Notes: generated by a model not told the origin, from the sequence alone. DNA of 63,121 bases, filler included, from Nemertoderma westbladi (GCA_032718475.1; 4 parts of 4 records of this genome joined end to end with filler, not necessarily neighbours in it); one strand, 5' to 3'. Counted from the whole stretch's first letter, positions 5,352 to 35,469 are shown. Numbers and translations are program-made.

Positions 5352-8300
5352 TCGGGTAGCAGATAGGAGTAGCGCCCACCCCTACCTTCGGGTAGCAGAT
5401 AGGAGTAGCGCCCACCCCCACCCTCGGGTAGCAGATAGGAGTAGCGCCCACCCCTACCTTCGGGTAGCACATAGGAGTAGCGCCCACCCCTACCTTCGGG
5501 TAGCAGATAGGAGTAGCGCCCACCCCTACCTTCGGGTAGCAGATAGGAGTAGCGCCCACCCCTACCTTCGCGTAGCAGATAGGAGTAGCGCCCACCCCTA
5601 CCTTAGGGTAGCAAATAGGAGTAGCGCCCAGCCCAACCTTCGGGTAGCAGATAGGAGTAGCGCCAACCCCTTCCCCCGGGTAGCAGATAGGAGTAGCGCC
5701 CACCCCTACCTTGGGTAGCAGATAGGAGTAGCGCCCACCACTACCTTCGGGTAGCAGATAGGAGTAGCGCCCACCCCTACCCTCGGGTAGCAGATAGGAG
5801 TAGCGCCCACCCCTACCTTCGGGTAGCAGATAGGAGTAGCGCCTACCCCTACCCTCGGGTAGCAGATAGGAGTAGTGCCCACCCCTACCTTAGGGTAGCA
5901 GATAGGAGTAGCGCCCACCCCTACCCTCGGGTAGCAGATAGGAGTAGTGCCCACCCCTACCTTAGGGTAGCAGATAGGAGTAGCGCCTACCCCTACCCTC
6001 GGGTAGCAGATAGGAGTAGTGCCCACCCCTACCTTAGGGTAGCAGATAGGAGTAGCGCCCACCCCTACCTTCGGGTAGCAGATAGGAGTAGCGCCTACCC
6101 CTACCCTCGGGTAGCAGATAGGAGTAGTGCCCACCCCTACCCTCGGGTAGCAGATAGGAGTAGCGCCCACCCCTACCTTCGGGTAGCAGATAGGAGTAGC
6201 GCCTACCCCTACCCTCGGGTAGTAGATAGGAGTAGCGCCCACCCCTACCTTCGGGTAGCTGATAGGAGTAGCGCCCACCCCTACCCTCGGCTAGCAGATA
6301 GGAGTAGCGCCAACCCCTACCTTAGGGTAGCTGATAGGAGTAGCGCCCACCCCTACCCTCGGGTAGCAGATGGAATAGCGCCCACCCCTACCCTCGGGTA
6401 GCAGATAGGAGTAGCGCCCACCCCTACCCTCGCCCTTGGGTAGCAGATAGGAGTAGCGCCCACCCCTACCTTGGATAGCTGATAGGAGTAGCGCCAACCC
6501 CTACCTTCGGGTGGCAGATAGCAGTAGCGCCCACCCCTACATTCGTGTAGCAGATAGGAGTAGCGCCAACCCCTACCTTCGGGTAGTAGATAGGAGTAGC
6601 GCCCACCCCTACCTTCGGGTATAGCAGATAGGAGTAGCGCCCACCCCTACCTTGGATAGCTGATAGGAGTAGCGCCAACCCCTACCTTCGGGTAGCAGAT
6701 AGCAGTAGCGCCCACCCCTACATTCGTGTAGCAGATAGGAGTAGCGCCCACCCCTACATTCGTGTAGCAGATAGGAGTAGCGCCAACCCCTACCTTCGGG
6801 TAGTAGATAGGAGTAGCGCCCACCCCTACCTTCGGGTATAGTAGATAGGAGTAGCGCCCACCCCTACCTTGGATAGCTGATAGGAGTAGCGCCAACCCCT
6901 ACCTTCGGGTAGCAGATAGCAGTAGCGCCCACCCCTACATTCGTGTAGCAGATAGGAGTAGCGCCAACCCCTACCTTCGGGTAGTAGATAGGAGTAGCGC
7001 CCACCCCTACCTTGGATAGCTGATAGGAGTAGCGCCAACCCCTACCTTCGGGTAGCAGATAGCAGTAGCGCCCACCCCTACATTCGTGTAGCAGATAGGA
7101 GTAGCGCCAACCCCTACCTTCGGGTAGTAGATAGGAGTAGCGCCCACCCCTACCTTGGATAGCTGATAGGAGTAGCGCCCACCCCTACCTTCGGGTAGCA
7201 GATAGGAGTAGCGCCCACCCCTACCTTGGGGTAGCAGATAGCAGTAGCGCCCACCCCTACCTCCGGGTAGCAGATAGCAGTAGCGCCAACCCCTACCTTC
7301 GGGTGGCAGATAGCAGTAGCGCCCACCCCTACATTCGTGTAGCAGATAGGAGTAGCGCCAACCCCTACCTTCGGGTAGTAGATAGGAGTAGCGCCCACCC
7401 CTACCTTCGGGTATAGTAGATAGGAGTAGCGCCCACCCCTACCTTGGATAGCTGATAGGAGTAGCGCCAACCCCTACCTTCGGGTAGCAGATAGCAGTAG
7501 CGCCCACCCCTACATTCGTGTAGCAGATAGGAGTAGCGCCCACCCCTACATTCGTGTAGCAGATAGCAGTAGCGCCCACCCCTACCTTGGATAGCTGATA
7601 GGAGTAGCGCCAACCCCTACCTTCGGGTAGCAGATAGCAGTAGCGCCCACCCCTACATTCGTGTAGCAGATAGGAGTAGCAACCACCCCTACCTTGGATA
7701 GCTGATAGGAGTAGCGCCAACCCCTACCTTCGGGTAGCAGATAGCAGTAGCGCCCACCCCTACATTCGTGTAGCAGATAGGAGTAGCGCCAACCCCTACC
7801 TTCGGGTAGCAGATAGCAGTAGCGCCCACCCCTACATTCGTGTAGCAGATAGGAGTAGCAACCACCCCTACCTTGGATAGCTGATAGGAGTAGCGCCAAC
7901 CCCTACCTTCGGGTAGCAGATAGCAGTAGCGCCCACCCCTACATTCGTGTAGCAGATAGGAGTAGCGCCCACCCCTACATTCGTGTAGCAGATAGCAGTA
8001 GCGCCCACCCCTACCTTGGATAGCTGATAGGAGTAGCGCCAACCCCTACCTTCGGGTAGCAGATAGCAGTAGCGCCCACCCCTACATTCGTGTAGCAGAT
8101 AGCAGTAGCGCCCACCCCTACCTTGGATAGCTGATAGGAGTAGCGCCAACCCCTACCTTCGGGTAGCAGATAGCAGTAGCGCCCACCCCTACATTCGTGT
8201 AGCAGATAGGAGTAGCGCCAACCCCTACCTTCGGGTAGTAGATAGGAGTAGCGTCCACCCCTACCTTCGGGTAGCAGATAGCAGTAGCGCCCACCCCTAC

Positions 8301-8371
8301 ATTCGTGTAGCAGATAGGAGTAGCGCCCACCCCTACATTCGTGTAGCAGATAGGAGTAGCGCCAACCCCTA
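5352..8371. repeat. 36-bp tandem satellite, left arm (unit CGGGTAGCAGATAGGAGTAGCGCCCACCCCTACCTT)
   Basis: About 3 kb of direct head-to-tail units. 35- and 38-bp variants appear from about 6460. Confidence 0.98.
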
Positions 8372-9458
8372 TGTTCGCGGTATTTCAACTTTCCATAACG
8401 CGAGTTGAATATTTTTGTATTTTATTAAAATTGATTATTCCGATATTACTACTGGGTGCGGGACCATGGGTTTTGGGCACATTCAATAAACTGGGGGCGA
8501 TTTATGGGCGAACTTTGGGGCGACTTACAGGGTACGGGAATAATTTCATAGTTATAAGGGCCAGGGGGGGATGGAAAATGCAAGCAGTATTCAGGTTAGC
8601 CTGAGTACTATTAGGCCCTGGCCAACTTCCTGCTGCCTGTAGGGATGGATTTGGTAATGCGCCAGGCCTAAAGGACAAGGACTGCCCTTAGCGGTCCCTG
8701 GCCAACAGCAGTTATTACGAGACTGAAAAGAACTCGGAACGCTGACTGCTTGTGTCAGGGATTTGCGACGGGAAACGACGGCCCCTTAGTAGCCAAGCCG
8801 TTCTGGTTCTCGATGATCGAACCCTTCGGGGTTCATGAGGGGTGGAGCGGACACGCGAACGGGTGGCCAACTAACGACTGCCCCCTGAGCTAAGCCGTAC
8901 TGGTTCTCGATGACTGATCCCTTCGGGGTTCGAGAGGGGCGGTACGGATACGCGACAGAGTCTACCGACTGGACCGACCCTTAGCCAAGCCGTGCTGGTT
9001 CTCGATGATCGTTCCCTTCGGGGTTCGTGAGGGGTGGAACGGACACGCGACAGGGTCGACCGACACCGACACTACGGCACTAAGACTAGGACCGAGGGGA
9101 AATCTGGGGAACACTAGGTAGGCTAAAATCTGAGCGAACAGTGGGTAATTAAATAATATACTGTAGGGACTTATATTATCGTGTATAATTATTGTGAATA
9201 TTTGGTGTATATTGATTTGGGGAAGCCCAAAATTATTCTTAATCAAGTTTCAATGATGTTGAACAGGTTTCAACTATAGGAAGTTACATTAAAGAGTATA
9301 TCCAACTAATGCAGCTTTCTATCAACCGCAAACTTGCATCTCAGAAAACATTCCTTCTCCCAAATCAATATCCGGTGACTGGCCGGGGCTCAGTGGTCTG
9401 TAAAGTCACGTCTCCAGCATCGGCGTTTTTCCCCCCTGGTGTTGGGATAACGGCAACA
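8372..9458 (+). repeat. 5' LTR (1087 bp)
   Basis: tgttcgcggt...cggcaaca. Matches 17892-18978 at offset 9520 with about 7 substitutions by eye. Confidence 0.97.
8798..9042 (+). other. Three 53-nt stem-loop repeats in the LTR (K-turn-like GA/GA core, cUUCGg loop)
   Basis: Copies at 8798-8850, 8895-8947 and 8990-9042: ccgtNNtggttctc-gatga-N-stem-cTTCGg-stem-N-ga-gggg...cgg. Also present in the 3' LTR at 18318-18562. Confidence 0.7.
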
Positions 9459-9516
9459 AAATTAAGAATAATTAATGCGGTTAATTTTGACATGGTGTCA
9501 AAATTAAGAATAATTA
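9459..9516 (+). promoter_or_regulatory. Primer-binding-site position: duplicated ATTAAGAATAATT complementary to LTR 9231-9243
   Basis: 9461-9473 and 9503-9515 are exact reverse complements of aattattcttaat (9231-9243). No TGG-initiated tRNA complement abuts the LTR. Confidence 0.55.
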
Positions 9517-9709
9517 CGGTCAACTTCAACTGGTGGAAGTTGAGAATCCTTCAATACTCTTCAAAAACTCTCTACGTGCTTGCCAGCACCCACTACGAGG
9601 AAACTCTGGTATTTGAGTTGAGACGAAGTCGTGGTTTAATTAATCAGCAAACTCGATCTAACCAACTCGTAGTCGGCAGATCACATATTTGGAGAGTTGT
9701 TAACAGGGA

Positions 9710-9901
9710 ATGGAAGTATCGATCACACCCATTGATATAATTCAAGTTGAGCCAGGAATCTGGCACGTCGAAGTTGAGGTACAAGGAACGAACGTTGGAC
9801 GATTCAGGATTACTGTTCGGGTGGTCCAAGCTGAGTACAATACCTACGAGGAACTGTTTTACGACATCGCGTATCTAGCCATCGACGAGGCGTTACAATG
9901 A
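9710..9901 (+). CDS. 63-aa leader ORF whose stop overlaps the gag start (ATGA)
   Basis: MEVSITPIDIIQVEPGIWHVEVEV...LAIDEALQ*. The TGA at 9899-9901 overlaps the ATG at 9898. Protein-like amphipathic pattern. Confidence 0.45.
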   Translation: MEVSITPIDIIQVEPGIWHVEVEVQGTNVGRFRITVRVVQAEYNTYEELFYDIAYLAIDEALQ

Positions 9902-12900
9902 CAACAAATAACGTATCCGATACCGACGAGATGGATCACCACACAGACTCGGAAGCCGACGAGGTACCAAACGTCAAGAACATGACCCGTCGGTTAGGGG
10001 CTCTTAAAGGCAGAGTAACCCGAGCGTATCAACGGATGGAGAAACAACTCAAGGGAGCCAAAACCCCCCTCAATGAGGTACAAACTCAGCTTCAAAGTAT
10101 CCGAAATATCCTACAGCGGTACGAAAGAATGATACAGGCGTACCAAGAGCTCGTTCCCCCCACCGATCAGGAAAACTACCCCAAGTTGGAAGAACACGTT
10201 GTACATCTAGATGGGTTCCGCAAACAACACCGGAGGACCCTCAGCCTTGTGAGAGGCTATGAGGAACAGTATTACAAGAGGGCTGAAAGAACAGACGCGG
10301 AATCAGTACGATCCTCCAGCATCAGGACAGCAGTACATCGAAAGAGAACGGGGTCCGTTAGAAATCAGCACTCCAGCGCTAGGAGCGAGATATCCGGCTC
10401 AGCGCGCAGTTCTCAAGGGGCGCCGCCACTCCGAGACCAACTGCGAGAACGGAAGGCATTAGCCCTCAAAGCTCGGATGGAAGATGAGTATATTCAACTG
10501 CAAGCCGAGCAAGATGTATTAGCCGCCGAAACACAAAAGCGAGAGGCCGAACAAGCGGCCGAACGGCAGGCCGAACAACGTGAACAGGAGGCCGAACAAC
10601 ATAGACGAGAGGCCGAACGACAGGCCGAACAACGTGAACAGGAGGCCGAACAACATAGACGAGAGGCCGAACGGCAGGACGAACAACATAAACGAGAGGC
10701 CGAACAACGTAGATGGGAGGACGAACGACAGGCCGAACAACGCAAACAGGAGGCCGAACAACGCGGACGAGAAGCCGAACGAGAGATCGAACAACGTAAA
10801 TGGGAAGCGGAAATGCGTAAACAACACGCCGAGGCCCAAGCAATTCTCATCCACAAAAAAAATGCGGATATTGCAAAACTCGCAGAATACGAAGCCGCAC
10901 TTATAGAACGAGATATTCAACTCTACGAGGACTGGGAAAGGGATATAGATCAGGAATATGAACCAATTCCGGTACCGGAGTTAGAAAAGTCATTTACACC
11001 AACAGCGGCGAAACCTCCGAAACCCGAGATCCCGCCTACCAAACAGTCTACGCTATCGGCACAAGCCCCGGTGTTCCATCCCCCACCGGCTACGCTAAAG
11101 AATGAGGAACCTTATTTCCCATCCAACACCACGACAGCGAGTGTACCCAAGTACGAGCCTGAAAAGGACTCGGAACGGGATGCCACTCCCCGATCTAACA
11201 ACCCATTTACATCCACACCACAAACTCGTTGCCGCGTCATTATTAAAACTCCACCTATTATTGATCCATCAAGTATGGGAGTGAGTGCCAATAACTATAA
11301 CCCTCCGAGTCACTCTAGTTCAGACGACGTCAGCATCATCCAGGCGTTGGAGAACCGCCTTGCCATGCCTAAGATGGAGATCCGCACCTTCGAAGGAGAT
11401 CCCGTCGATTACCTCAGATTCAAGAAACGGTTCTTTGCGCAGATCGGATCAACGGACATAGCCGACGCACAGAAATTGGTATATTTATCGCAATACCTGG
11501 GTGACAAACCACGCAGAATTGTTGCATGTTTTGAAGGAGGCTCTCATGAGGCATACTATGACGCATGGAAAACTCTAGATAAAAGATACGGTAATACCGG
11601 AACTATAATTAATAAAACTCTAGAGAGACTGATACAGGACGCAGGATCACTAGGGGACCCACAGAACATACAGGAATTCTCCGACTCTATGAAGGATGCC
11701 TACTATACTCTGAAACCCTTAAATAAGGAGGACCAGGTGAACAACATTCTAAACCTCCGACAGATCGCCAAGAAGTTCCCCGGATGGTTACAAAGTAAGT
11801 GGGCTTATAAATGTGTAGATCTCCGGTGCAGACATCCAGATCGAGATCCTAGCTTCCTTGAAATGTCGGCATTCCTGGACGATATCTCCGAAGCCATGAA
11901 TGACTCGATGTTTTCAAAACAAAGTCTCGCAAAGTTGGACGGAATAGAGAGCAACTCCAGGAGTAAGATAACCCCTCCGAAACCGAGATTCCGCCCCCCA
12001 CCGGTAAGTACGATGGCCATTACCATGGCCGAGGATTCCGACGACGAAGACTATGAGGAACCGACATCCGCCGAGGAATGGGCATGTTATCTCGCGAGTT
12101 GGGCACCCGAAAGGGAAGGCATCACAAACTCCCTGCTCTGTCTCTTCTGTGGGGAGAAACATAAAGTGGAATTCTGCAGAAAGTTTCAGTTCGCCGAACT
12201 CGTCCCACGCTTCGAGGCGATAATGAAACACCGAGGATGCTTCCGGTGTCTTGGAACAGGTCACTATGTTCGGGAGTGCGACCAAAGATCATGCTGTGCT
12301 GTCTGTAACGACCAACGCCATCACACGCTCCTCCACATCCCCGCGAACTTCGATTTTACTACCCTCCCCTTTCGGATCGAAGCCAGGCGAAGAGGAGAAA
12401 CAAACCACATCTTCAAAGGAACCCGGACAACCCAACGGAGAGAAACCAACCCGTTTAAAATCTCCACCGACACACCACAAGTAACCAATATTTCGGCCAC
12501 GATTAATCTTATAAATCGCCGCTACATGGTTTTCGCAAAGGTAATCCCAGTAAGGATCCAAGGAGTCGGCAAATCTTTGACGACACTCGCGTTCCTCGAT
12601 AACGGGTCTGACGGAACCATCATCGACCGGGATTTCCTCGAGCAACTCGGCCTAGAATATGAACCTTGTAAACGGCCCATACAAACCATCACCGATAACA
12701 GAGAAGTAGAGTCCGGGGAGGTACAACTCCAGATGGAAGGAGTGATGAAGGGCTACGAAACGGCTAAGTCAACCATCAAGAACGCCTTGGTACACACAGA
12801 CCTCCGAGTGCGGTTCCGACAATCAGCCGAGTACGCCCCCCTCATACAATTGGACCGAGACGATGTAGATCTGAGGTGTCCGCAGTTGGACGTAAACCGC

Positions 12901-13878
12901 ATCACCCTACTGATCGGACTTGATACACCGGAATTACACATACCTACCGGAGATGTCGCCCGATCCATAAAGAAAGATGACGGCTTTTACGCTGAACGAA
13001 CCATAATGGGATGGACCCTCTGCGGCATCAAGGAAGAAACTACTGACACCTATACATATCTTCCTAAATGTCAGATTAAAGAAAATGTAACATCCGTGGG
13101 ATATTGCTCAGCTACAGACCTCGATGAGGATTTATTTCTCGAAACCGAGAGAACCCAGCGGGAGATGACCGGATGCTTTAATGTGGAGACCCGAGAGTTT
13201 GCCGAGAAGGACGAGAATCCGTCCGAGGAAGATCAATATTGTACCAACATTTTTGATCAGGCCACGTTCAAAGACGGACATTGGCGCGTGCCCATGCTTT
13301 GGTGGCTAATAAGGTTGTTGATGATAATAATGATGTTGATAACATTGACACCATTAATGAGAGAGCACGGACTAATCTGCCGTAATACCCGGATGGCGAA
13401 CGCCTCAGTTGAGCCCCTCACTCCTAACCACTTACTGGGGAGACCCAAAACCCACGTTCTCCCGGAAACCATGTTTCCGGATCCCAACGAGATCACGAAA
13501 CATACAAACTGGAAAAAGGCCCAAGCGTTGGCAGCGCATTGGTGGAGAATCTGGGCCCAGGAGTACCTCATAACCCTCCGGACCAGGAGGAAATGGAACA
13601 ACACCTACCGGAACGTCGCAGTTGGCGACATGGTACTAGTTAAAGAAGATCTCAAAGACCGCGTTCACTGGCCTGTGGCGCGGGTCGTGACCATACACCC
13701 AAGCAAAGACGGACTTGCGAGGACTGTGACAATACGAACGGCAAAGGGCCACTACCAACGCCCTATCCAGAGGCTGTGCCTTCTTGAAGGCAATGATAGC
13801 GGTGACTCTACGAGAGGTGATAAGATCCCTACTCAAGATCCTGCTGTGGACATTGGTGACAATTACAAACCCGTGTAA
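9898..13878 (+). CDS. BEL/Pao Gag-protease polyprotein fused to the integrase C-terminal domain; RT, RNase H and IN core absent
   Basis: Coiled-coil EAEQ/REAE repeats; BEL gag core (FEGDPVDYLRF...KLVYLSQYL); three Zn knuckles (CLFCGEKHKVEFC, CFRCLGTGHYVREC, CAVCNDQRHHTLLH); protease AFLDNGS; then PLTPNHLLG...WWRIWAQEYL...VGDMVLVKED...SKDGLARTV...RPIQRLCLL. No YVDD/YxDD RT motif. Confidence 0.93.
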   Translation: MTTNNVSDTDEMDHHTDSEADEVPNVKNMTRRLGALKGRVTRAYQRMEKQLKGAKTPLNEVQTQLQSIRNILQRYERMIQAYQELVPPTDQENYPKLEEHVVHLDGFRKQHRRTLSLVRGYEEQYYKRAERTDAESVRSSSIRTAVHRKRTGSVRNQHSSARSEISGSARSSQGAPPLRDQLRERKALALKARMEDEYIQLQAEQDVLAAETQKREAEQAAERQAEQREQEAEQHRREAERQAEQREQEAEQHRREAERQDEQHKREAEQRRWEDERQAEQRKQEAEQRGREAEREIEQRKWEAEMRKQHAEAQAILIHKKNADIAKLAEYEAALIERDIQLYEDWERDIDQEYEPIPVPELEKSFTPTAAKPPKPEIPPTKQSTLSAQAPVFHPPPATLKNEEPYFPSNTTTASVPKYEPEKDSERDATPRSNNPFTSTPQTRCRVIIKTPPIIDPSSMGVSANNYNPPSHSSSDDVSIIQALENRLAMPKMEIRTFEGDPVDYLRFKKRFFAQIGSTDIADAQKLVYLSQYLGDKPRRIVACFEGGSHEAYYDAWKTLDKRYGNTGTIINKTLERLIQDAGSLGDPQNIQEFSDSMKDAYYTLKPLNKEDQVNNILNLRQIAKKFPGWLQSKWAYKCVDLRCRHPDRDPSFLEMSAFLDDISEAMNDSMFSKQSLAKLDGIESNSRSKITPPKPRFRPPPVSTMAITMAEDSDDEDYEEPTSAEEWACYLASWAPEREGITNSLLCLFCGEKHKVEFCRKFQFAELVPRFEAIMKHRGCFRCLGTGHYVRECDQRSCCAVCNDQRHHTLLHIPANFDFTTLPFRIEARRRGETNHIFKGTRTTQRRETNPFKISTDTPQVTNISATINLINRRYMVFAKVIPVRIQGVGKSLTTLAFLDNGSDGTIIDRDFLEQLGLEYEPCKRPIQTITDNREVESGEVQLQMEGVMKGYETAKSTIKNALVHTDLRVRFRQSAEYAPLIQLDRDDVDLRCPQLDVNRITLLIGLDTPELHIPTGDVARSIKKDDGFYAERTIMGWTLCGIKEETTDTYTYLPKCQIKENVTSVGYCSATDLDEDLFLETERTQREMTGCFNVETREFAEKDENPSEEDQYCTNIFDQATFKDGHWRVPMLWWLIRLLMIIMMLITLTPLMREHGLICRNTRMANASVEPLTPNHLLGRPKTHVLPETMFPDPNEITKHTNWKKAQALAAHWWRIWAQEYLITLRTRRKWNNTYRNVAVGDMVLVKEDLKDRVHWPVARVVTIHPSKDGLARTVTIRTAKGHYQRPIQRLCLLEGNDSGDSTRGDKIPTQDPAVDIGDNYKPV

Positions 13879-14149
13879 CCCTTCTCATCATGTTGACAAA
13901 CTCTTTTAAACTGTGATTTACTGACAATGAGTTATGGACCCCCCTTAAACCAACTGTAACCACGCAATGGTATTTGTGTTTCCTCGTGTGTTATGTGGAG
14001 TCCAGCGTCACCCTGCAGATGTTTCGGCTGACGCAGGGTCGTTTATGTTTTGTTTACCCTGATTTTGGTCATCAGGACCTACGATATTGGATTATTGGAA
14101 ATGGAAAAGATTTGAAGTGGAATTCATTGTATTCATTGCAGTATGTTAT

Positions 14150-14580
14150 GTTGTCCGTTGCGTGCGCAGTTCGGGGGGTAGGCGGTGTAACGAGTCCAGC
14201 TGTAGATCCCGGATTGCCGCGCAACACCCCCTCTATCCCGTTATTCTGGTGGGTCCATGGTGCATCCACATGACTTCGACGATAGAGGGTTTTATGTTTC
14301 TCAGTCGCGTTATTCTGGTGGGACCATTACGTGGATTTTGGGGCGTAGGCGGTGTAACGAGTCCAGCTGTAGATCCCAGAATGTTGCGTAACCCCATCCC
14401 ACATGACTTCGTCGACTGAGCTTTATGTTGTTGGGAGTGTTATTCTGGTGGGTCCCTGGTGCATCCACGTGACTTCACTCCCAGCGTCTTCATTGTCCGT
14501 TACGTGCGCAGTTTGGGGCGTAGGCGGTGTAACGAGTCCAGCTGTAGATCCCAGATTGCCGCGTAACACCCCTTCCACGA
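14150..14580 (+). repeat. Three copies of a conserved module in the inter-ORF region
   Basis: gtaggcggtgtaacgagtccagctgtagatccc at about 14178, 14345 and 14520; gttattctggtggg at about 14240, 14309 and 14439. Confidence 0.85.
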
Positions 14581-15125
14581 CAAAGATTAACCAAAGAAAA
14601 TGATTGAATATAGTTGGAAATGATGAAAAGGATCAGACAACTCTGCTATAAACCTGAATGATGACGCGTATAATGATGAAAATGAAATGATGCGCACCCT
14701 GGTGCTGCGCTTATAACCAATGATGATAGCCGGGGGGCTATAAACCCAATGATGATGTGGAAATAAATAAATGTGAAATAAAGGGTGGAAATAAATGTGT
14801 TGAAATATATGTGGAAATAAATGAAATGAGATGAAATAATAATGAAATGAAAAAAGACAAAAAAAAGGTATAAAAAAGTCTAAAGAAAAGAATTAGAAAA
14901 AAGAAAAGGACAAAAAAGTCATAAAAAACTGGTTGGATATTAATGTATAGCTATAGTAACTGTAAATGCTGAATGTATTAGCAATAAGATGATAGATGTC
15001 TATATAGCAATGTTATTAACAAACTGAATTAAATAAAAAACTGAATTATTCTGCTATCGCTATAGTTTCAGACTTTCTGGACTTATAATTAACTGAACTA
15101 ATTTGTAACGGATATAATCGTAAAT

Positions 15126-17726
15126 ATGGACCCAAATCGCCAAATTATCGGCGAATTACGTAACATGACAGATCTACTGGAATATTCGCAACCCGGATCC
15201 CCTGACTTCGATACAAATTGGAGCACCCTGCTAAATGAGAACGTGCGAGTCATTAAATTCACCGGGCGAGAGGGACCGGATTCTAAGAATCTACGAGCCC
15301 TCCGGTTAGCCGATGCTAGTACGAGACTGAAAAGAACTCGTAACGCAAAGGCAACCGGAGGGGACGATTCGTCATTTTGGGAAACGTTCCGGCAGAGCAT
15401 CTACAGATCCCGATGTTTGATCTACGACAACGAGGGAAACGCGACGCCCACCTCGAAAGCGATTACGTTGGCGAGATGTCAAAGTTTTGTCGACGACAAG
15501 AGTACGTACCTCGTCCACTGGGGAAACCTGTCGGAGTGTACGGCGACGCTTCGAGAGGAACGCGTATCGATTATCCAAAACCGCGACGACTACCAGGAAA
15601 AGTACGGGGCGAAAGAATACGGTCGATCCTTAGTCGTCATCCTCGGAACCCTGGACGGTTTGGTACTGGTGTGCCGAATATTCCCGACACCCAGACAGGA
15701 AGTGCAGGCAGCCGGAGCGATCTGGTTGCTGCCTCCGGAAATCCAAAAGATCCTCTTCGACTTCGACGTCATTAAAATCGGGTCGGATATCAAGGCGGAC
15801 GTCCAGAACGACTACGCGAACGCTCCTGCAGGAAGAAACCGACGAGACGACCTCAACGCCCTTAGCCATTGCATCGACACTCAAACGCTACTAGCCTGGT
15901 TACGATTCGCCGAGTTCATGCGAGGATTTCAAGAGGTGAGACCGACGAAATCAGGGATCGGCTACCTCGCTGTGCTAAACGGCGGTATCGACTTCAAACC
16001 CCAGAAATTCCGGGACTATAATAAAATATACGGTGGATACCCGGGATTAGAAATAAAGAGCGAGCGAGAGGGTCGATGGAAGGACGTTGATCGGAAGTGG
16101 ACGATACACCAAAGGTGGGAGAATCCCGATCGACGGAACTACGTTTACGTCGTTATGGAATGCTACACCGTCGCTAAGTTTATCTGTAGAACTCTCGATA
16201 ACCTTATTACGGCGGTCCCCCTTTCCTTCGTCGACTACGACTGGAACGAGGTCATACACCACGCGTTCAAAGCGGTCGAGAACATTACACCGGGAGAATC
16301 GAAAACGCCCGCCATTATCGATTCCTGGGACGAGAGCGGACCTAACGACATCCCTACGATTACCGAACTTCTCGGTGCGGAGGAGCCTCTGATCTCTTCG
16401 GAAGGGGAAGAGATATGGCTAAACGAGGGTGTTCTACTCTCCACCCCGAAGCGACAAATCGAGCCGGAGGCCGCGTACGGACCGGTCGCCAAACGGGTTG
16501 CCTCGGCCGAACCGATGAAGAGAGCAGGCGTTTACACCCCACGCGGCTCCGGTAGCCCCGCGAGGGAGGTAGCCACTACAGCTGCATTGAGCGACTTCGG
16601 CGACATATGCCAACGGTTATCCCCGTATCCTTTCCCGGGTGGCGAAGATTGGTCGTCGGAGATCCCGAGTACCAGCCACCAACGGACCCGCTCAGCGATA
16701 CTGGTCGAGGAGGGCCCCAGCGATGCGCCGACCCCCGACGATCTCCTCGGTATCCCTCCGTCTAAAACCCCGGCACCTCTTCGCCGACCAGCGGTGGCCA
16801 CTACACCCGCCGTTCCTCAGGACCCTATGCGACTAACCCGTTGGTACGCCGAGCAAACTGAATGGATCCACCGCCAGAAACGGTCATCCGAGTTAAGACC
16901 AGCGGGACACAAAGAAGGTTATCGGAGCGAGAACCTACTACGCAAAAGCCTAGCATTCCGCGGGCTACCGACCACTGAGAATATTCCGAAGAGCGACCGA
17001 CGACTCGAATACTACATCGGCGTCCCGATTCCGATATTTCCTGGTCGAGAGATGCAGTTGGAGCTATGCGGCGACTGTGGTTCGGAGCAGTGCCCACGCG
17101 GCAGAAGGAATCGGGTTACCGATTCATGCCTCCAGCTCCTCGGGATACTCTATTGCCCATACTGCGCGACATCGGGCCACGACGTTTCCGTCTGCCCGAT
17201 CCTTTATAACCTCTGCACCACGTGCGGTTTCCGTGGACATTCCTCTAGCCCCCGCTGCTATATCAAATCTCCAACCAAAGACGTTACTGCTATGGGAAAT
17301 ATGGTCATGTTTGAAACATACGCAAACAGCCACTTAAAGACCAAGGTTCGGAGAAACGCTCGGAATATCGCGCAGGAGATGGCGTGCGGATATTTCTCCT
17401 TCCCGGAACGCCTCCACACGTCGGCCACGCTACCTTTCCATTACGTGGATCTGCTACTGAGCGCCGGATTATTCGGTCCATTTGAAGTCATTAGGCGATT
17501 ATACTCGTATAAAGAGGAGTTCGGTGACGGAGAGTGGTTCCTAGAGGCACGCAAGTCTGAGTTGGAAAGACGAACCGACATGATCCCTATGCCTTCGAAA
17601 GGAAGAGCCGCCAGGAGACAAGCCGAAGCGTTACTCACGATGGATGTGGACGCTCCTCTACCAGCCATAGCGATCGATGAGAGTCGACGGGCGAAGAGAC
17701 GAAAGGCGTATCAGAGAAAGAAATAG
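15126..17726 (+). CDS. 866-aa accessory ORF of the LTR element: WRN/EXD-like 3'-5' exonuclease-fold region, disordered linker and CCHC zinc knuckles
   Basis: Intact ORF. LVVILGTLDGLVLVCRIF...LPPEIQKILFDFDVIKIGSDIKAD...CIDTQTL...GIGYLA...W...YVVME follows the DEDDy exonuclease motif order. CPYCATSGHDVSVC and CTTCGFRGHSSSPRC knuckles. No signal peptide or TM anchor. Candidate splice acceptor tttcag at 15066-15071. Confidence 0.75.
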   Translation: MDPNRQIIGELRNMTDLLEYSQPGSPDFDTNWSTLLNENVRVIKFTGREGPDSKNLRALRLADASTRLKRTRNAKATGGDDSSFWETFRQSIYRSRCLIYDNEGNATPTSKAITLARCQSFVDDKSTYLVHWGNLSECTATLREERVSIIQNRDDYQEKYGAKEYGRSLVVILGTLDGLVLVCRIFPTPRQEVQAAGAIWLLPPEIQKILFDFDVIKIGSDIKADVQNDYANAPAGRNRRDDLNALSHCIDTQTLLAWLRFAEFMRGFQEVRPTKSGIGYLAVLNGGIDFKPQKFRDYNKIYGGYPGLEIKSEREGRWKDVDRKWTIHQRWENPDRRNYVYVVMECYTVAKFICRTLDNLITAVPLSFVDYDWNEVIHHAFKAVENITPGESKTPAIIDSWDESGPNDIPTITELLGAEEPLISSEGEEIWLNEGVLLSTPKRQIEPEAAYGPVAKRVASAEPMKRAGVYTPRGSGSPAREVATTAALSDFGDICQRLSPYPFPGGEDWSSEIPSTSHQRTRSAILVEEGPSDAPTPDDLLGIPPSKTPAPLRRPAVATTPAVPQDPMRLTRWYAEQTEWIHRQKRSSELRPAGHKEGYRSENLLRKSLAFRGLPTTENIPKSDRRLEYYIGVPIPIFPGREMQLELCGDCGSEQCPRGRRNRVTDSCLQLLGILYCPYCATSGHDVSVCPILYNLCTTCGFRGHSSSPRCYIKSPTKDVTAMGNMVMFETYANSHLKTKVRRNARNIAQEMACGYFSFPERLHTSATLPFHYVDLLLSAGLFGPFEVIRRLYSYKEEFGDGEWFLEARKSELERRTDMIPMPSKGRAARRQAEALLTMDVDAPLPAIAIDESRRAKRRKAYQRKK

Positions 17727-17882
17727 TGGATCGGGATATTCCAGGAACATTTATCGAACATTTATTTTTATACAAACTCTAGGCCAAATTAATTAAAAAC
17801 TATGCAATATTAAATTTGGGTTTTTTATATTGGGAATGACCTACGCAAACTCAATCGACCGACAGACTTCACGAAGGTCATT

Positions 17883-17890
17883 GGGGGGGA
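17883..17890 (+). other. Polypurine tract
   Basis: GGGGGGGA ending 1 nt before the 3' LTR. Confidence 0.75.
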
Positions 17891-17891
17891 C

Positions 17892-18978
17892 TGTTCGCGG
17901 TATTTCAACTTTCCATAACGCGAGTTGAATATTTTTGTATTTTATTAAAATTGATTATTCCGATATTACTACTGGGTGCGGGACCATGGGTTTTGGGCAC
18001 ATTCAATAAACTGGGGGCGATTTATGGGCGAACTTTGGGGCGACTTACAGGGTACGGGCATAATTTCATAGTTATAAGGGCCAGGGGGGGATGGAAAATG
18101 CAAGCAGTATTCAGGTTAGCCTGAGTACTATTAGGCCCTGGCCAACTTCCTGCTGCCTGTAGGGATGGATTTGGTAATGCGCCAGGCCTAAAGGACAAGG
18201 ACTGCCCTTAGCGGTCCCTGGCCAACAGCAGTTATTACGAGACTGAAAAGAACTCAGAACGCTGACTGCTTGTGTCAGGGATTTGCGACGGGAAACGACG
18301 GCCCCTTAGTAGCCAAGCCGTTCTGGTTCTCGATGATCGAACCCTTCGGGGTTCGTGAGGGGTGGAGCGGACACGCGAACGGGTGGCCAACTAACGACTG
18401 CCCCCTGAGCTAAGCCGTACTGGTTCTCGATGACCGATCCCTTCGGGGTTCGAGAGGGGCGGTACGGATACGCGACAGAGTCTACCGACTGGACCGACCC
18501 TTAGCCAAGCCATGCTGGTTCTCGATGATCGTTCCCTTCGGGGTTCGTGAGGGGTGGAACGGACACGCGACAGGGTCGACCGACACCGACACTACGGCAC
18601 TAAGACTAGGACCGAGGGGAAATCTGGGGAACACTAGGTAGGCTAAAATCTGAGCGAACAGTGGGTAATTAAATAATATACTGTAGGGACTTATATTATC
18701 GTGTATAATTATTGTGAATATTTGGTGTATATTGATTTGGGGAAGCCCAAAATTATTCTTAATCAAGTTTCAATGATGTTGAACAGGTTTCAACTATAGG
18801 AAGTTACATTAAAGAGTATATCCAACTAATGCAGCTTTTTATCAACCGCAAACTTGCATCTCAGAAAACATTCCTTCTCCAAAATCAATATCCGGTGACT
18901 GGCCGGGGCTCAGTGGTCTGTAAAGTCACGTCTCCAGCATCGGCGTTTTTCCCCCCTGGTGTTGGGATAACGGCAACA
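17892..18978 (+). repeat. 3' LTR (1087 bp)
   Basis: Near-identical to 8372-9458 and followed by the TSD CCCTA. Confidence 0.97.
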
Positions 18979-20411
18979 CCCTACCTTCGGGTAGTAGATA
19001 GGAGTAGCGCCAACACCTACCTTCGGGTATAGTAGATAGGAGTAGCGCCCACCCCTACCTTGGATAGCTGATAGGAGTAGCGCCAACCCCTACCTTCGGG
19101 TAGCAGATAGCAGTAGCGCCCACCCCTACATTCGTGTAGCAGATAGGAGTAGCGCCAACCCCTACCTTCGGGTAGTAGATAGCAGTAGCGCCCACCCCTA
19201 CATTCGTGTAGCAGATAGGAGTAGCGCCCACCCCTACATTCGTGTAGCAGATAGGAGTAGCGCCAACCCCTCCTTCGGGTAGTAGATAGGAGTAGCGCCA
19301 ACCCCTACCTTCGGGTATAGTAGATAGGAGTAGCGCCCACCCCTACCTTGGATAGCTGATAGGAGTAGCGCCAACCCCTACCTTCGGGTAGCAGATAGCA
19401 GTAGCGCCCACCCCTACATTCGTGTAGCAGATAGGAGTAGCGCCAACCCCTACCTTCGGGTAGTAGATAGGAGTAGCGCCCACCCCTACCTTCGGGTATA
19501 GTAGATAGGAGTAGCGCCCACCCCTACCTTGGATAGCTGATAGGAGTAGCGCCAACCCCTACCTTCGGGTAGCAGATAGCAGTAGCGCCCACCCCTACAT
19601 TCGTGTAGCAGATAGGAGTAGCGCCAACCCCTACCTTCGGGTAGTAGATAGGAGTAGCGCCCACCCCTACCTTCGGGTATAGTAGATAGGAGTAGCGCCC
19701 ACCCCTACCTTGGATAGCTGATAGGAGTAGCGCCAACCCCTACCTTCGGGTAGCAGATAGCAGTAGCGCCCACCCCTACATTCGTGTAGCAGATAGGAGT
19801 AGCGCCAACCCCTACCTTCGGGTAGTAGATAGGAGTAGCGCCCACCCCTACCTTGGATAGCTGATAGAAGTAGCGCCAACCCCTACCTTCGGGTAGCAGA
19901 TAGCAGTAGCGCCCACCCCTACATTCGTGTAGCAGATATGAGTAGCGCCAACCCCTACCTTCGGGTAGTAGATAGGAGTAGCGCCCACCCCTACATTAGT
20001 GTAGCAGATAGGAGTAGCGCCAACCCCTACCTTCGGGTAGTAGATAGGAGTAGCGCCCACCCCTACCTTGGATAGCTGATAGGAGTAGCGTCAACCCCTA
20101 CCTTCGGGTAGCAGATAGCAGTAGCGCCCACCCCTACATTCGTGTAGCAGATAGGAGTAGCGCCCACCCCTACCTTCGGGTAATAGATAGGAGTAGCGCC
20201 AACCCCTACCTTCGGGTAGTAGATAGCCTACATTCGTGTAGCAGATAGGAATAGCGCCAACCCCTACCTTCGGGTAATAGATAGGAGTAGCGCCAACCCC
20301 TACCTTCGGGTATAGCAGATAGGAGTAGCGCCCACCCCTACCTTCGGGTAACAGATAGGAGTAGCGCCAACCCCTACATTTGGGTAGCAGAGGAGTGTAG
20401 CGCCTACCCCT
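18979..20411. repeat. 36-bp tandem satellite, right arm
   Basis: Resumes in register after the LTR; 181-bp higher-order repeats; degenerates near 20400. Confidence 0.97.
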
Positions 20412-20564
20412 GTTTGCTTGCTATGATAAACATACAGGGAATAACTACACAGTGATGTGTTCATATGCTGGGGATTCTCTATAAATAGAAAACATAGAAT
20501 GTTAACTTGGCTTGCCTTATGTATTATTGCTTAATGAAGGTAATTTGTATTTATTTTTTATTAG

Positions 20565-20677
20565 GAATTATCTTATTAATGGACGAAAACGTAAACCTAA
20601 CAGGTTGTAGTGTTTACTCCTCAGTTATGTCGGACGGAGAACAAGGAAAGTGCAACACAACAGCTATAAAGGGAAAG
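20565..20677 (+). CDS. Internal exon of an unknown extracellular glycoprotein
   Basis: Acceptor tttttattag, (G)IILLMDENVNLTGCSVYSS...GKCNTTAIKGK, donor gtgaga. Joins in phase with the next exon. Confidence 0.6.
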
Positions 20678-21039
20678 GTGAGATCATTAATACCGATAGT
20701 TAGTTAGCTTTTAATATGTTAAAACAATTAGATTTTTTCCCTAAATATTATTAATATCATTGCATGTATATTACATTTCTCTACGAAGAAATTAAAATAA
20801 GGATATAAATGAAACGAGAGGATATTTTTGGTGGAATTTCTTTAATTATATTACTGAATACAAGTAGCTTATCGTAGTAGAACAGGGTTAAATATTAGTT
20901 TATAATATACCTAAATTCATTAAAATTATTCTGATTTATTTATACTACCGGTATTCATTGCAATACCATTCTTTCCGGCTGTACCTATAGTAACTACCTC
21001 CAATGTCTCCATAGTAACTACCTCCAATGTATTCAACAG

Positions 21040-21212
21040 GGACTGTTTTACGAGAATACCAATGAAGAAGATGGCATCGTGATCAAAGGGCCTAGCAATA
21101 CAACCTCAGCGGAAACTGTTTCATTTAACTTGTCTGTGGTCATTGATAATGTTCAAGCAGTTGGATTTAGATTAATAAATAATTACACAGAGATATTCAT
21201 GTTAGATAAAAA
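21040..21212 (+). CDS. Internal exon of the same unknown glycoprotein
   Basis: Acceptor caacag, GLFYENTNEEDGIVIKGPSNTTSAETVSFNLSVVIDNVQAVGFRLINNYTEIFMLDK, donor gtaagt. Sequons NTT, NLS and NYT. Confidence 0.6.
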
Positions 21213-22678
21213 GTAAGTATAAATCTTACATACATGTTAGATAAAAAGTAAGTATAAATCTTACAAAAATGTTAGATAAAAATTAAGTATAAATCTTACA
21301 TACATGTTATATAAAAGTTAAGTATAAATCTTACATACATGTTAGATAAAAAGTAAGTATAAATCTTACGTACATGTTAGATAAAAAGTAAGTATAAATC
21401 TTACATACATGTTAGATAAAAAGTAAGTATAAATCTTACATACATGTTATATAAAAAGTAAGTATAAATCTTACATACATAAAACATACTTGTTATATAA
21501 AAAGTAAGTATAAATCATACATACATGTTATATAAAAAGTAAGTATAAATCTTATACTTGTTAGATAAAAAGTAAGTATAAATCTTACATACATGTTATA
21601 TAAAAAGTATTTATAAATCTTACATACATGTTATATAAAAAGTAAGTATAAATCTTACATACATGTTATATAAAAAGTAAGTATAAATCTTACATACATG
21701 TTATATAAAAGTTAAGTATAAATCTTACAGACATGTTATATAAAAATTAAGTATAAATCTTACAGACATGTTATATAAAAAGTAAGTATAAATCTTACAT
21801 ACATGTTATATAAAAAGAAGTATAAATCTTACATACATGTTATATAAAAATTAAGTATAAATCTTACATACATGTTATATAAAAGTTAAGTATAAATCTT
21901 ACAGACATGTTATATAAAAATTAAGTATAAATCTTACAGACATGTTATATAAAAAGTAAGTATAAATCTTACATACATGTTATATAAAAAGTAAGTATAA
22001 ATCTTACATACATGTTTTATAAAAACTAAGTATAAATCTTACAGACATGTTATATAAAAGTTACGTATAAATCTTACAGACATGTTATATAAAAATTAAG
22101 TATAAATCATACATACATGTTATATAAAAAGTAAGTATAAATCTTACATACATGTTATGTAAAAAGTAAGTATAAATCTTACATACATGTTTTATAAAAA
22201 CTAAGTATAAATCTTACAGACATGTTATATAAAAAGTAAGTATAAATCTTTCATACATGTTATATAAAAAGTATGTATAAATCTTACATACATTTATATA
22301 AAAAGTAAGTATAAATCTTACATACATGTTATATAAACAGTAAGTATAAATCTTACAGACATGTTATATAAAAAGTAAAAATAAATCTTACATACATGTT
22401 ATATAAAAAGTAAGTATAAATCTTACATACATGTTATATAAAAAGTATGTATAAATCTTACAAACATAAAACATACATGTTATATAAAAATTAAGTGTAT
22501 AAATCTTACATACATGTTATATAAAAAGTAAGTATAAATCTTACATACATGTTATATAAAAAGTAAGTATAAATCTTAAATACATGTTATATAAAAGAAA
22601 GTATAAATCTTACAGACATGTTATATGAAAAGTAAGAATAATTCTTACATACATGTTATATAAAAAGTAATTATAAAT
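21198..22678. repeat. 35-bp AT-rich minisatellite (ACATGTTATATAAAAAGTAAGTATAAATCTTACAT)
   Basis: About 40 tandem units with period 35. Confidence 0.97.
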
Positions 22679-22837
22679 CGTATCACTCTTGTTTTTCCTT
22701 ATAAAATTACTAATTTATAGTTTGGTTTTCTTAATAATATATTATATCAAACGAAGATCTATTATATAATTAGACTTAATAATTACTATAAAATATTCAA
22801 ATAGTTTTATGTCCCCTAAGTCCTCTAAGTACGTGTT

Positions 22838-23120
22838 GTGGGGCGAGCCACGAAAGTAAGCGACCTTATCATACGGGTACAACTATCTCAACCTATGTGT
22901 CTGTTAATCTGTAGATCTGTCGTTCTGTAGATCTGTATACTACTACTACTACTACTAGGTCGAGCGAGCTCGGACATAGATAGATCATAGGTAGATCTGT
23001 ATACCAATATTTAAACATTAATAACTCGGCCAATCCTCGATGAAATCTAACCAAGTTTATAAATTTTCCAAATAGAATTTACGTGTGGTCTACGAGAAGC
23101 TAAAATAAAAAGTAATTAAT
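22838..23120 (+). mobile_element. Dispersed non-autonomous repeat (Helentron/HINE-like architecture); second copy at about 60104-60330
   Basis: Shared ggggcgagccacgaaa...catacgggtac...microsatellite...aataactc-gccaa...tgaaatcta-ccaa...cgagaagctaa. Confidence 0.55.
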
Positions 23121-23208
23121 TAAGTGCTAAATATTTTGTGAATACATTAGGCAAAATAAAAAATGTGTGTGAACTTGATGCTCTCTCAGTGAATGGCTTT
23201 AATTGCAA

Positions 23209-23935
23209 GATGTGATGGTTCTTCTTGCCAAATGTGATGGCTCCTCTTGCCAAATGTGATGGCTCCTCTTGCCAAATGTGATGGATCTTTTTGCCAAATG
23301 TGATGGCTCCTCTTGCCAATTGTGATGGCTCTTCTTGCTAAAAGTGATGTCTCATCTTGCCAAATGTGATGGCTCCTCTTGTCAAATGTGATGGCTCCTC
23401 TTACCAAATGTGATGGCTCCTCTTGCCAAATGTGATTTCTCCTCTTGCCAAATCTGATGGCTCCTCTTGCCAAATGTGATGCCTCCTCTTGCCAAATGTG
23501 ATGGCTCCTCTTGCCAAATGTGATGTCTCCTCTTGCCAAATGTGATGTCTCATCTTGCCAAATGTGATGGTTCCTCTTGCCAAATGTGATGGCTCCTCTG
23601 GCCAAATGTGATGGCTCCTCTTGCCAAATGTGATGGCTCCTCTTGCCAAATGTGATGGCTCCTCTTCCCAAATGTGATGTCTCCTCTTGCCAAATGTGAT
23701 GTCTCATCTTGCCAAATGTGATGGCTCCTCTTGCCAAATGTGATGGCTCCTCTTGGCAAATGTGATGGCTCCTCTTGCCAAATGTGATGTCTCTTCTTGC
23801 CAAATGTGATGTCTCATCTTGCCAAATGTGAGGGCTCCTCTTGCCGAATGTGATGGCCCCTCTTGCCAAATGTGATGGCTCCTCTTGCCAAATGTGATGG
23901 CTCCTCTTGCCAAATGTGATGGCTCCTCTTGTCAA
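23209..23935. repeat. 22-bp minisatellite (AAATGTGATGGCTCCTCTTGCC)
   Basis: About 33 tandem units. Confidence 0.97.
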
Positions 23936-25067
23936 TGCAATGTGTGTAATGGTTTCAAGTTGAATTTTGGGAGCTTCCATTAAATATTTCAATGCTGGAA
24001 TGAACGTCTCCTGATGCTGACGGTAAAATGATCTGAAAATTTCGACATAACTTACTGCAAAATGCATTCATCAACTCTGAGAATTGGTTGAATGGAGTAG
24101 AACCATGGGTGATTGTACTGGAACCATCGTTGATTGAACTGGAAACGACGTTGATTGTACTGAAACCATTGCTATTGGAGTGGAAGCATTGTTGGCTGCT
24201 CATTCGAGGATATCTTTACAATATGGCTCATTTCCTATAATCACTTATATCTTATATCGGACTTATATCAGCAAACTCTTGATTTATCAAAGAGAATATG
24301 TTCTAATCTGATTAGAGAACCCTTTGTTGATTGTATAGAATTATTAATTTACTTGTAATAAAACTGTTTCTCTGAAATATATGCGATCTGTGCATTTATT
24401 ATTGTGCTTTTCTGCTGGTTGGTGCTGTAAGTGGCTGACTGTTGACTGGGTTGTCACAAACCGATTCGTATTTTTATATTGCAATTTTTCATATTAATTA
24501 ATTCTACTAATACTGTGACTGTTAATACTTACTATTTACATATAATATAATATAATATAATTAATTAATTAATTAATATATAATGTAGTAATAACAATTT
24601 TTAATTAATTATTATATTTTTATTATTATTAATTCATAATTAAACAAAATGTAATATACACACATATAAATATATATTTAAATAACTGAATAATGAAATA
24701 ATATGAAGGCCTAGTTAATGAAAACAACTATATCCTTTATTTATGTTTCTTCTTATTATTATTATTAAGAACAAGAGATAATAAAGTGGACGGCAGCACC
24801 ATCCTAGACACCAATGCTGCGCCAATATGTTCCGCTGGAGCGAAGGCAACTTGTTTACTTATTATTATGTATTATCCTATTAAATAACCAAATAAGAAAA
24901 TACATTATTAAATATCTATTAAATAAATATCAATAATGATTTGTAATATAGTGTTTTATCTTATCACGGGCCACGGGCTTGAAAATCGTACAATTACCCC
25001 CCCCCCCCCCCCCCCCTGGTACGAATTAACGTGTACCAGAGAAAATTCGGTATTAGGGGTAAAGTCG

Positions 25068-25155
25068 GTAGTAGTGGGTGCATTGAATTCATATCTTTCG
25101 TAGGTCGTGGGTTCGATCCTCCCCCCTTGCCTTGGCAGTTTTCGGCTTTTCGGCC
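25068..25155 (+). mobile_element. tRNA-derived SINE head (family also at 32970-33140 and 56565-56655)
   Basis: gtagtgggtgcattgaattca...gggttcgatcc...ggcagttttc, with A/B boxes shared with the other copies. Confidence 0.55.
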
Positions 25156-26459: not shown

Positions 26460-26705
26460 CATCAGTACAAGCAGTTTTACGCCTTTGCTCAAGAAGTAAA
26501 AACCATGTCATATCGAATCTACCTTTCTGGAATCCAACGCAAGGAATGTGTAGCCGTGGACGACTGGCTATGACATATATAGACCAACTTGAAAGAGATA
26601 CTGGAGTTGAGAGAAACGAAATTGCGACAACTATGGAGAATCGGGAAGCCTGGAATGATCTCATTTCCCCCTGTCTGACCTCGTTCGAACTAGTAGTAAT
26701 AGTTA
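26460..26705 (+). mobile_element. RTE-clade LINE 3' end remnant
   Basis: Reads VISNLPFWNPTQGMCSRGRLAMTYIDQLERDTG...MENREAW, followed by a tag-repeat tail. Confidence 0.75.
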
Positions 26706-35350: not shown

Positions 35351-35469
35351 CAAGAGAGGGGACAATCCCTCCACCCGGAGTACCCAGCAGGCACAGTAAG
35401 GGGACATTCACCCAACTTGGAATTCACAATAAACCCGGGGGTAACGAACCTGAACTCACAAGACAATCA

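What the first reader, a model, noticed from the sequence alone, without database searches (positions are those of the whole stretch)
15126..17726. BEL/Pao element carries an intact exonuclease-fold plus zinc-knuckle gene in place of env
Seen: a stop-free 866-aa ORF between the truncated pol and the PPT, with no signal peptide or TM anchor, so it is not an envelope. The region at about 15480-16200 runs LVVILGTLDGLVLVCRIF / LPPEIQKILFDFDVIKIGSDIKAD / CIDTQTL / GIGYLA / W..YVVME. The C-terminus has a canonical CX2CX4HX4C, a CX2CX4HX5C and a further Cys cluster. Established: that motif order is that of WRN/EXD1/EXD2/Mut-7/Egalitarian DEDDy domains (LP..L..LL.D..I.KVG..I..D; .D...L; gL..L; W...YAA.D), several of which act in piRNA trimming or mRNA transport. 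Inference: ExoI and ExoIII acidic residues look degenerate (GNLSE, YVVME), so this may be a captured pseudo-nuclease used as an RNA-binding factor, silencing suppressor or RNP-transport factor. It stayed intact while RT and IN were lost. I recall an exonuclease domain reported in a nematode BEL element, so precedent needs checking.
Basis: partly seen in the sequence, partly recalled or inferred. Interest (0 to 1): 0.88.

Follow-up and report, generated by a model that had tools for sequence, protein, structure and literature searches.

The report
BEL/Pao retrotransposon carrying an RNA exonuclease
A young jumping gene of the BEL/Pao type carries, where an envelope gene would sit, a conserved extra gene for a protein predicted to join an RNA-trimming enzyme fold to zinc knuckles, likely still active, a kind of cargo described in print for rotifer retroelements of other groups.

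Summary
The 866-aa ORF is real. It sits between pol and the polypurine tract of a young BEL/Pao element (LTRs differ at 7 of 1087 bases). It has nine remote, mostly unnamed relatives. A profile built from this family alone hits only DEDDy exonucleases (EXD2, E 9e-7), and the family-guided model matches DEDDy folds (Z up to 11). ExoI is D101/E103, set off by a 55-residue insertion; D225 and Y341 are also present. The only departure is E345 where Asp is usual, also seen in two relatives. Nine of 11 relatives with the domain keep all five catalytic positions. One distant relative lies directly behind a complete BEL/Pao gag-pol. A diverged copy shows purifying selection (dN/dS about 0.2-0.3). The loss of RT and integrase belongs to this copy or subfamily, and other deleted copies cut ORF2 as well. 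Best reading: a conserved BEL/Pao accessory RNA 3'-5' exonuclease with zinc knuckles, target untested. DEDDy third ORFs are published for rotifer retroelements, so this is a new variant of a known kind.

The parts
8372..9458 (+). 5' LTR, TG...CA, 1087 bp; 5-bp target duplication at 8367-8371 and 18979-18983; inserted in a 36-bp satellite
9461..9473 (+). Primer-site position: 13 bases complementary to LTR 9231-9243, repeated at 9503-9515 (self-priming-like signature, inferred)
9898..13878 (+). ORF1, 1326 aa: Gag (DUF1759, triple Cys-His box 12139-12336), aspartic protease, then integrase C-terminal DUF5641; RT, RNase H and integrase core are missing between about 13303 and 13410
   Evidence: depth dip and loose ends
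13879..15125 (+). Intergenic region with three repeats about 170 bp apart, an A-rich tract and a candidate splice acceptor at 15066-15071 (candidate only; no RNA evidence)
15126..17726 (+). ORF2, 866 aa: DEDDy-type exonuclease domain, linker, zinc-knuckle domain, basic tail
15372..16205 (+). Predicted DEDDy exonuclease domain (aa about 83-360): D101 (15426), E103 (15432), D225 (15798), Y341 (16146), E345 (16158)
15438..15605 (+).
16236..17045 (+). Pro/Ser/acidic linker, not conserved among relatives (likely disordered)
17067..17495 (+). Three tandem zinc-knuckle-type motifs (C648-C711) plus a conserved extension without a Pfam family
17682..17723 (+). Basic C-terminal tail, possible nuclear localisation signal (inferred)
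17883..17891 (+). G-rich polypurine tract
17892..18978 (+). 3' LTR, 7 mismatches to the 5' LTR in 1087 bp

Best explanation
ORF2 is a conserved accessory gene of a group of BEL/Pao retrotransposons, and its protein likely works as an RNA 3'-5' exonuclease whose zinc knuckles would hold single-stranded RNA and feed its 3' end to a DEDDy-type active site. Shown: the ORF, its place, the family, purifying selection and the catalytic positions. Predicted: the fold. Inferred: expression from a subgenomic, perhaps spliced, RNA; catalytic activity with Glu at the last acidic position; RNA as substrate. For the target, my first choice is counter-defence, trimming or destroying host small RNAs or their precursors aimed at the element (about 35% of all readings). 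Second is trimming the element's own RNA or primer (rival 2). This copy cannot move by itself and was likely copied in trans by longer family members.
For: Family: 9 relatives at E 5e-14 to 1e-3, best stretch to P0003 in the exonuclease part; same two-domain order. Fold: family profile against PDB sequences hits only DEDDy proteins, 3 of 3 (Egalitarian E 4e-4, EXD2 4e-3) and 4 of 4 with a larger alignment (EXD2 E 9e-7, Mut-7, WRN). Model pLDDT 60, pTM 0.63; Foldseek best EXD2 E 3e-3, probability 0.99; VIA Z 11.0, rmsd 4.3, 159 aligned, the top rows nearly all DEDD/DnaQ-type domains. Atlas nearest clusters for P0003 are PF01612, the best with CCHC, score 0.86, a lead only. Catalytic positions: D101, E103, D225, Y341, E345; 9 of 11 relatives with the domain keep all five. 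Context: L007 has the gene directly behind a complete BEL/Pao gag-pol. Selection: 15 synonymous against 14 non-synonymous differences to a diverged copy, dN/dS 0.17-0.27, p 0.0003-0.004. Analogy: in trypanosome RNase D the zinc knuckles raise RNA binding and cleavage (PMC7797062 section 13).
Against: No activity or expression data. The last acidic residue is Glu, whose effect is unknown (one search found no paper), and the three Glu-bearing members do not form one group in a poorly resolved tree. The 55-residue insertion lies next to ExoI. Egalitarian keeps all five residues, yet mutating them does not harm RNA binding or function (bioRxiv 10.1101/2025.08.03.668247). 2 of 11 relatives (P0004, P0007) are degenerate, and 3 of the 9 phmmer hits have only the knuckle domain. 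The diverged copy used for dN/dS has a stop and lacks the ExoIII Tyr, and only 48 codons were compared. Foldseek had no match at E 0.001 or better. Only 1 of 9 related loci is long enough to show a neighbouring pol. Nothing here points directly at small RNAs as the target.
Confidence: 0.55

Rival explanations
1. The nuclease fold serves as an RNA-binding scaffold, as in Egalitarian or EXD1: the protein binds the element's RNA and helps export, transport or protect it, and catalysis is absent or incidental.
For: Egalitarian is the best hit of one profile and needs none of its catalytic residues; PDB holds it bound to an I-factor RNA signal (entry title). Glu replaces Asp in ExoIII; 2 of 11 relatives are degenerate; knuckle-only relatives exist; 5 of 7 full proteins printed end in a basic tail.
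Against: All five positions are kept in 9 of 11 relatives at about 20-30% identity. With the larger profile Egalitarian drops out and EXD2 leads.
Confidence: 0.25
2. The exonuclease acts on the element's own nucleic acid: it would trim the 3' end of a self-primer, of the genomic RNA or of cDNA intermediates inside the particle.
For: The element has a self-priming-like primer site, 13 bases complementary to its own LTR. Rodriguez et al. name 3'-end processing of the element's RNA as a possible role (PMC5408684). The knuckles resemble nucleocapsid-type domains.
Against: Self-priming signatures are noted in many BEL/Pao elements by earlier scan notes that do not mention this gene (unchecked). Most described BEL/Pao elements have only gag and pol (PMC3118150 passages). 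No sign of packaging was tested.
Confidence: 0.15
3. ORF2 is a recently captured host gene fragment with no use to the element, intact only because the copy is young.
For: The LTRs are 99.4% identical, so this copy is young. A diverged copy has a stop, and several deletion derivatives cut ORF2.
Against: dN/dS about 0.2-0.3 between subfamilies; same gene order in a distant BEL/Pao element; no close named host homologue in 1.84 billion representatives.
Confidence: 0.05

Closest known systems
DEDDy-exonuclease ORF3 of bdelloid rotifer Juno and Vesta LTR retrotransposons and of Athena/Terminon elements (PMC5408684, main text read; PMC6431247, passages)
   Same: Exonuclease gene in the env position; invariant residues kept with one Asp-to-Glu change (the paper writes DEED); no membrane anchor; activity untested; the paper also describes a non-autonomous family that keeps its third ORF while losing most of pol.
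   Different: Here the host element is BEL/Pao. The protein adds a long linker and a three-knuckle domain with a conserved extension. The Glu is at the last acidic position. Common descent with the rotifer ORFs was not testable (no sequences).
Trypanosoma brucei RNase D (TbRND; PDB 7c42; PMC7797062, abstract and section 13)
   Same: DEDDy exonuclease followed by several CCHC knuckles; hit by the knuckle profile (E 3e-4) and by the fold search (Z 8.7).
   Different: A cellular guide-RNA trimming enzyme. Here a linker of about 280 residues separates the domains, and the exonuclease is nearer to EXD2/Egalitarian by profile.
EXD2, Egalitarian, EXD1, Nibbler/Mut-7, WRN exonuclease domains (PF01612 group)
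   Same: Fold, motif order, N-terminal helix before ExoI, LP..I..LL.D..I.KVG..I..D segment, W before ExoIII.
   Different: About 10-20% identity; below the Pfam threshold; the source family is unresolved, since the best hit changes with the alignment.
BEL/Pao elements with env (Tas, Cer7, Cer13, Atlas; PMC554778 and PMC9094657, passages)
   Same: Same element group and same position of the extra gene.
   Different: Those genes are envelope glycoproteins; this one is a soluble nuclease-fold protein in a separate ORF. A nematode BEL exonuclease is recalled only and was not confirmed.

Membership tests
BEL/Pao LTR retrotransposon | LTRs with TG...CA ends and a short target-site duplication | tested here: met
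   1087-bp LTRs, 5-bp duplication
BEL/Pao LTR retrotransposon | Triple Cys-His box in Gag and LLDXG + LIG protease motifs (PMC554778) | tested here: met
   Three boxes at aa 748, 781, 800; FLDNG at 899 and LIG at 1004; DUF1759 and DUF5641 above cut-off
BEL/Pao LTR retrotransposon | Pao-type RT and RNase H, placement in an RT tree | not testable with these tools
   RT is missing from this copy and no genome is held; relative L007 has Peptidase_A17, RT and integrase
DEDDy 3'-5' exonuclease | RNase H-like DnaQ fold | tested here: met
   Predicted model; profile and fold searches
DEDDy 3'-5' exonuclease | ExoI D-x-E | tested here: met
   D101, E103 by leave-one-out profile, z = 6 among 850 windows
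DEDDy 3'-5' exonuclease | ExoII Asp | tested here: met
   D225, invariant in 9 of 9 rows
DEDDy 3'-5' exonuclease | ExoIII Y-x3-D | tested here: inconclusive
   Y341 is invariant in 9 of 9 rows; the acid is Glu here and in 2 relatives, Asp in 6
DEDDy 3'-5' exonuclease | Two-metal 3'-5' nuclease activity | not testable with these tools
   Needs an assay
Pfam PF01612 member | Score above the curated cut-off | tested here: not met
   No hit for ORF2; P0003 11.9 bits against 23.6
Pseudo-nuclease (EXD1/Exuperantia type) | Loss of catalytic acidic residues | tested here: not met
   All four acidic positions are acidic and the Tyr is kept
Envelope glycoprotein | Signal peptide and membrane anchor | tested here: not met
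   The only hydrophobic stretch is a predicted beta-hairpin; hydropathy scan only
Rotifer Juno/Vesta DEDDy ORF3 lineage | Common descent in a tree | not testable with these tools
   No rotifer or host reference sequences could be fetched
Rrp6/RNase D-type with HRDC | HRDC domain behind the exonuclease | tested here: inconclusive
   No Pfam hit; the region behind the domain is an unconserved linker and was not folded

The most novel reading that the evidence does not exclude
BEL/Pao elements of several animals carry their own active RNA exonuclease with a new zinc-knuckle domain as an anti-silencing weapon that destroys host piRNAs or their precursors: a capture independent of the rotifer and gypsy cases, and a sign that retroelements repeatedly recruit RNA nucleases against small-RNA defence.
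Probability: 0.25. Interest if true: 0.8.

Novelty: new variant of a known kind. Interest (0 to 1): 0.45.

Why it matters
The role of nuclease cargo in retrotransposons has been open since the rotifer report of 2017, which left its activity undemonstrated. This extends the arrangement to BEL/Pao, defines an unannotated family of about 15 members that Pfam misses, and includes natural Asp, Glu and degenerate forms that can be compared in a simple nuclease assay. If the target is host small RNA, it would be an element-encoded suppressor of silencing in animals.

Tried and rejected
Searches that found nothing for ORF2 alone: Pfam (only a weak zf-CCHC_4, E 0.0045), PDB sequences, word-indexed homologue searches (one search returned only 3 proteins already in hand), metagenome and viral contigs by single protein, viral contigs by motif. 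The single-sequence model (pLDDT 35) and its fold search (best Z 4.9) were uninformative and are not used. No RNA holder was listed; run X5 is only guessed to be RNA, is from another organism label and covers 14 of 30 bins, so expression and splicing are untested. Depth is no copy number. The ORF1 counts (4 synonymous, 14 not) and the Fisher test used a wrong frame and are void; one search gives 12 and 8, which removes the apparent contrast with ORF2 (8 and 8; p 0.74). These counts rest on the 40 best-supported of 993 differences. 5 of the 14 motif loci (L002, L003, L005, L008, L013) were dropped as weak knuckle matches: L002, L003 and L005 lie in front of LINE- or gypsy-type pol genes, and L008 and L013 are near-copies of L002 and L003. 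The family tree is mostly unresolved. A link between the ORF downstream in L010 and Gag was not found. The Atlas could not be queried with ORF2 itself. No tRNA gene in the window. The nematode precedent was not found in searches; three look-ups for older papers were not held, so its absence from print is not shown. No supplementary files were read. No complex prediction was run.

Full report
Observation. It lies in an LTR element spanning 8372-18978. The two 1087-bp LTRs differ at 7 positions, end in TG...CA and are flanked by a 5-bp duplication inside a 36-bp satellite. ORF1 (9898-13878) has DUF1759, a triple Cys-His box, an aspartic protease and DUF5641. These are the BEL/Pao hallmarks listed in PMC554778 (passages). 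RT, RNase H and the integrase core are missing, with ORF1 still in one frame.

Copies. The DNA is held by runs of one organism label in three studies. Laying four runs showed cover in all 30 bins for the three DNA runs. Depth falls at 13122-13415 in X1 and X3 (about 3,000-4,000 against about 12,000-30,000 over the rest of ORF1), and loose ends at 13113, 13346, 13404 and 13411-13414 show that other copies continue into different sequence there. By eye the last of these reads like the integrase stretch that precedes the conserved PLTPNH motif. So the loss of RT and integrase belongs to this copy or its subfamily; that complete copies exist is inferred, not shown. Other joints remove parts of ORF2 (11177 to 15311, 12567 to 16094, 16181 to 17340), so ORF2 is not uniquely spared.

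Selection. One contig of run X4, about 83% identical over 15936-16140, gave 29 listed differences of 35: 5, 8 and 16 by codon position, 15 synonymous and 14 not, dN/dS 0.17-0.27, p 0.0003-0.004 depending on the transition weight. That copy has a stop and lacks the ExoIII Tyr, so it has since decayed. Among the 40 best-supported of 993 differences, ORF2 has 8 synonymous and 8 other, ORF1 12 and 8 (an earlier ORF1 count was in the wrong frame and is void).

Family. Single-sequence searches found nothing. phmmer against 1.84 billion representatives gave 9 relatives (E 5e-14 to 1e-3), unnamed or 'hypothetical'. Six have an N-terminal domain plus a C-terminal Cys/His domain like ORF2; three have only the latter. 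A motif scan of metagenome contigs gave 14 loci. Nine score at E 4e-14 or better against the knuckle profile; five weaker ones were dropped as Gag/ORF1 knuckles of other retroelements. Only L007 holds enough upstream DNA to show context (1 of 9). There a 1369-aa frame with both domains (exonuclease E 5.5e-5, knuckles 9e-19, from profiles that did not include it) directly follows a complete BEL/Pao gag-pol. L007 falls in a well-supported subgroup apart from ORF2, so the link with BEL/Pao is likely old.

Fold. A profile of seven family domains, with no known nuclease in it, matched three PDB sequences, all DEDDy: Egalitarian twice and EXD2. A nine-row profile matched EXD2 (E 9e-7), Mut-7 and WRN twice. 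AlphaFold2 with the seven-row alignment gave pLDDT 60 and pTM 0.63, with a confident core and low-confidence insertions. Foldseek ranked EXD2, a plant WRN-like protein, Egalitarian and Nibbler first (best E 3e-3; none at 0.001). VIA-align gave Z 11.0 to 7.2 over 50 rows that are nearly all DEDD/DnaQ-type domains. The Atlas placed P0003 next to PF01612 clusters, the best with CCHC knuckles (0.86, a lead only). The knuckle profile hit Lin28, Air2, nucleocapsids and trypanosome RNase D.

Active site. A profile built without ORF2 aligns it from aa 86 to 357 (E 2.5e-21) and puts ExoI at D101-x-E103, followed by a 55-residue insertion that contains GNLSE; the ungapped block scores 19.7 there, 2.9 at the next best place. 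D225 and Y341 are invariant in the nine-row alignment; the last acid is Glu in ORF2, P0003 and P0005 and Asp in six. Of 11 relatives with the domain, 7 keep all five positions in one frame, 2 keep them across a break (L006, L014) and 2 are degenerate (P0004, P0007). The family is therefore best read as catalytically conserved. Whether Glu is tolerated is unknown (one search found no paper), and Egalitarian shows that intact residues need not be used.

How it likely works. The gene would be expressed from a subgenomic RNA (candidate acceptor at 15066-15071; no RNA data). The knuckles would bind single-stranded RNA and the exonuclease would trim its 3' end, as shown for trypanosome RNase D. I favour counter-defence against small RNAs, because nuclease cargo recurs in unrelated retroelements: rotifer Juno, Vesta and Terminons in print, gypsy elements in unchecked scan notes. 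That is an inference from recurrence, with no direct evidence. Non-catalytic RNA binding and trimming of the element's own RNA remain open.

Known and new. Rodriguez et al. 2017 describe DEDDy third ORFs with intact residues and one Asp-to-Glu change (parts 1-3 of 5 read, the main text). I found no report for BEL/Pao in searches or in the passages searched in PMC3118150, PMC554778, PMC9094657, PMC13524379 and PMC11662393. Older subscription papers were not available, so the recalled nematode case stays open. Verdict: real, conserved, a new variant of a known kind; interest 0.45.

Noticed in passing
window 9461-9473 and 9503-9515 against 9231-9243: The primer-site position is complementary over 13 bases to the element's own LTR, a self-priming-like signature; it is duplicated around a hairpin in this copy, and other copies skip 44-48 bases here.
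   Followed up: partly
window 13303-13410: The pol deletion looks like two junctions around a short remnant, and ORF1 stays in one frame to the integrase C-terminal domain. The junction region is seen with differences in three runs, which suggests a replicating non-autonomous subfamily.
   Followed up: partly
window 8786-9064 and 18306-18584: Three repeats about 96 bp apart inside each LTR, 80-100% alike.
   Followed up: no
window 14151-14575: Three repeats about 170 bp apart between ORF1 and ORF2, with high depth; could be packaging, promoter or translation signals.
   Followed up: no
window 10497-10820: Tandem repeats in gag encode a long Glu/Arg/Gln-rich, likely coiled-coil stretch.
   Followed up: no
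window about 5240-8370 and 18980-20420: 36-bp satellite array into which the element inserted.
   Followed up: no
window 31443-32576: 377-aa open frame that looks like the C-terminal part of a USP20/USP33-type deubiquitinase (recalled resemblance).
   Followed up: no
window 35141-36908, 54535-55770, 59004-60053: Fragments that look like non-LTR retrotransposon RT genes (recalled resemblance).
   Followed up: no
window 48617-49063: Exon-like frame with a signal-peptide-like start and a motif resembling F-type lectins (recalled resemblance).
   Followed up: no
window 38447-39716 and 60668-62172: Large inverted arrays of about 150-bp and 12-bp repeats.
   Followed up: no
L007 6155-8860: The relative's frame has about 900 further residues in front of the exonuclease and overlaps the end of pol; no Pfam family.
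   Followed up: no
L011 79-2022 (P0004): Relative with a degenerate exonuclease and a duplicated knuckle domain.
   Followed up: partly
L006 3-1133 and L010 3-956: Unexplained hydrophilic frames downstream of the family gene on the same strand; L010's has no match to this element's Gag.
   Followed up: partly
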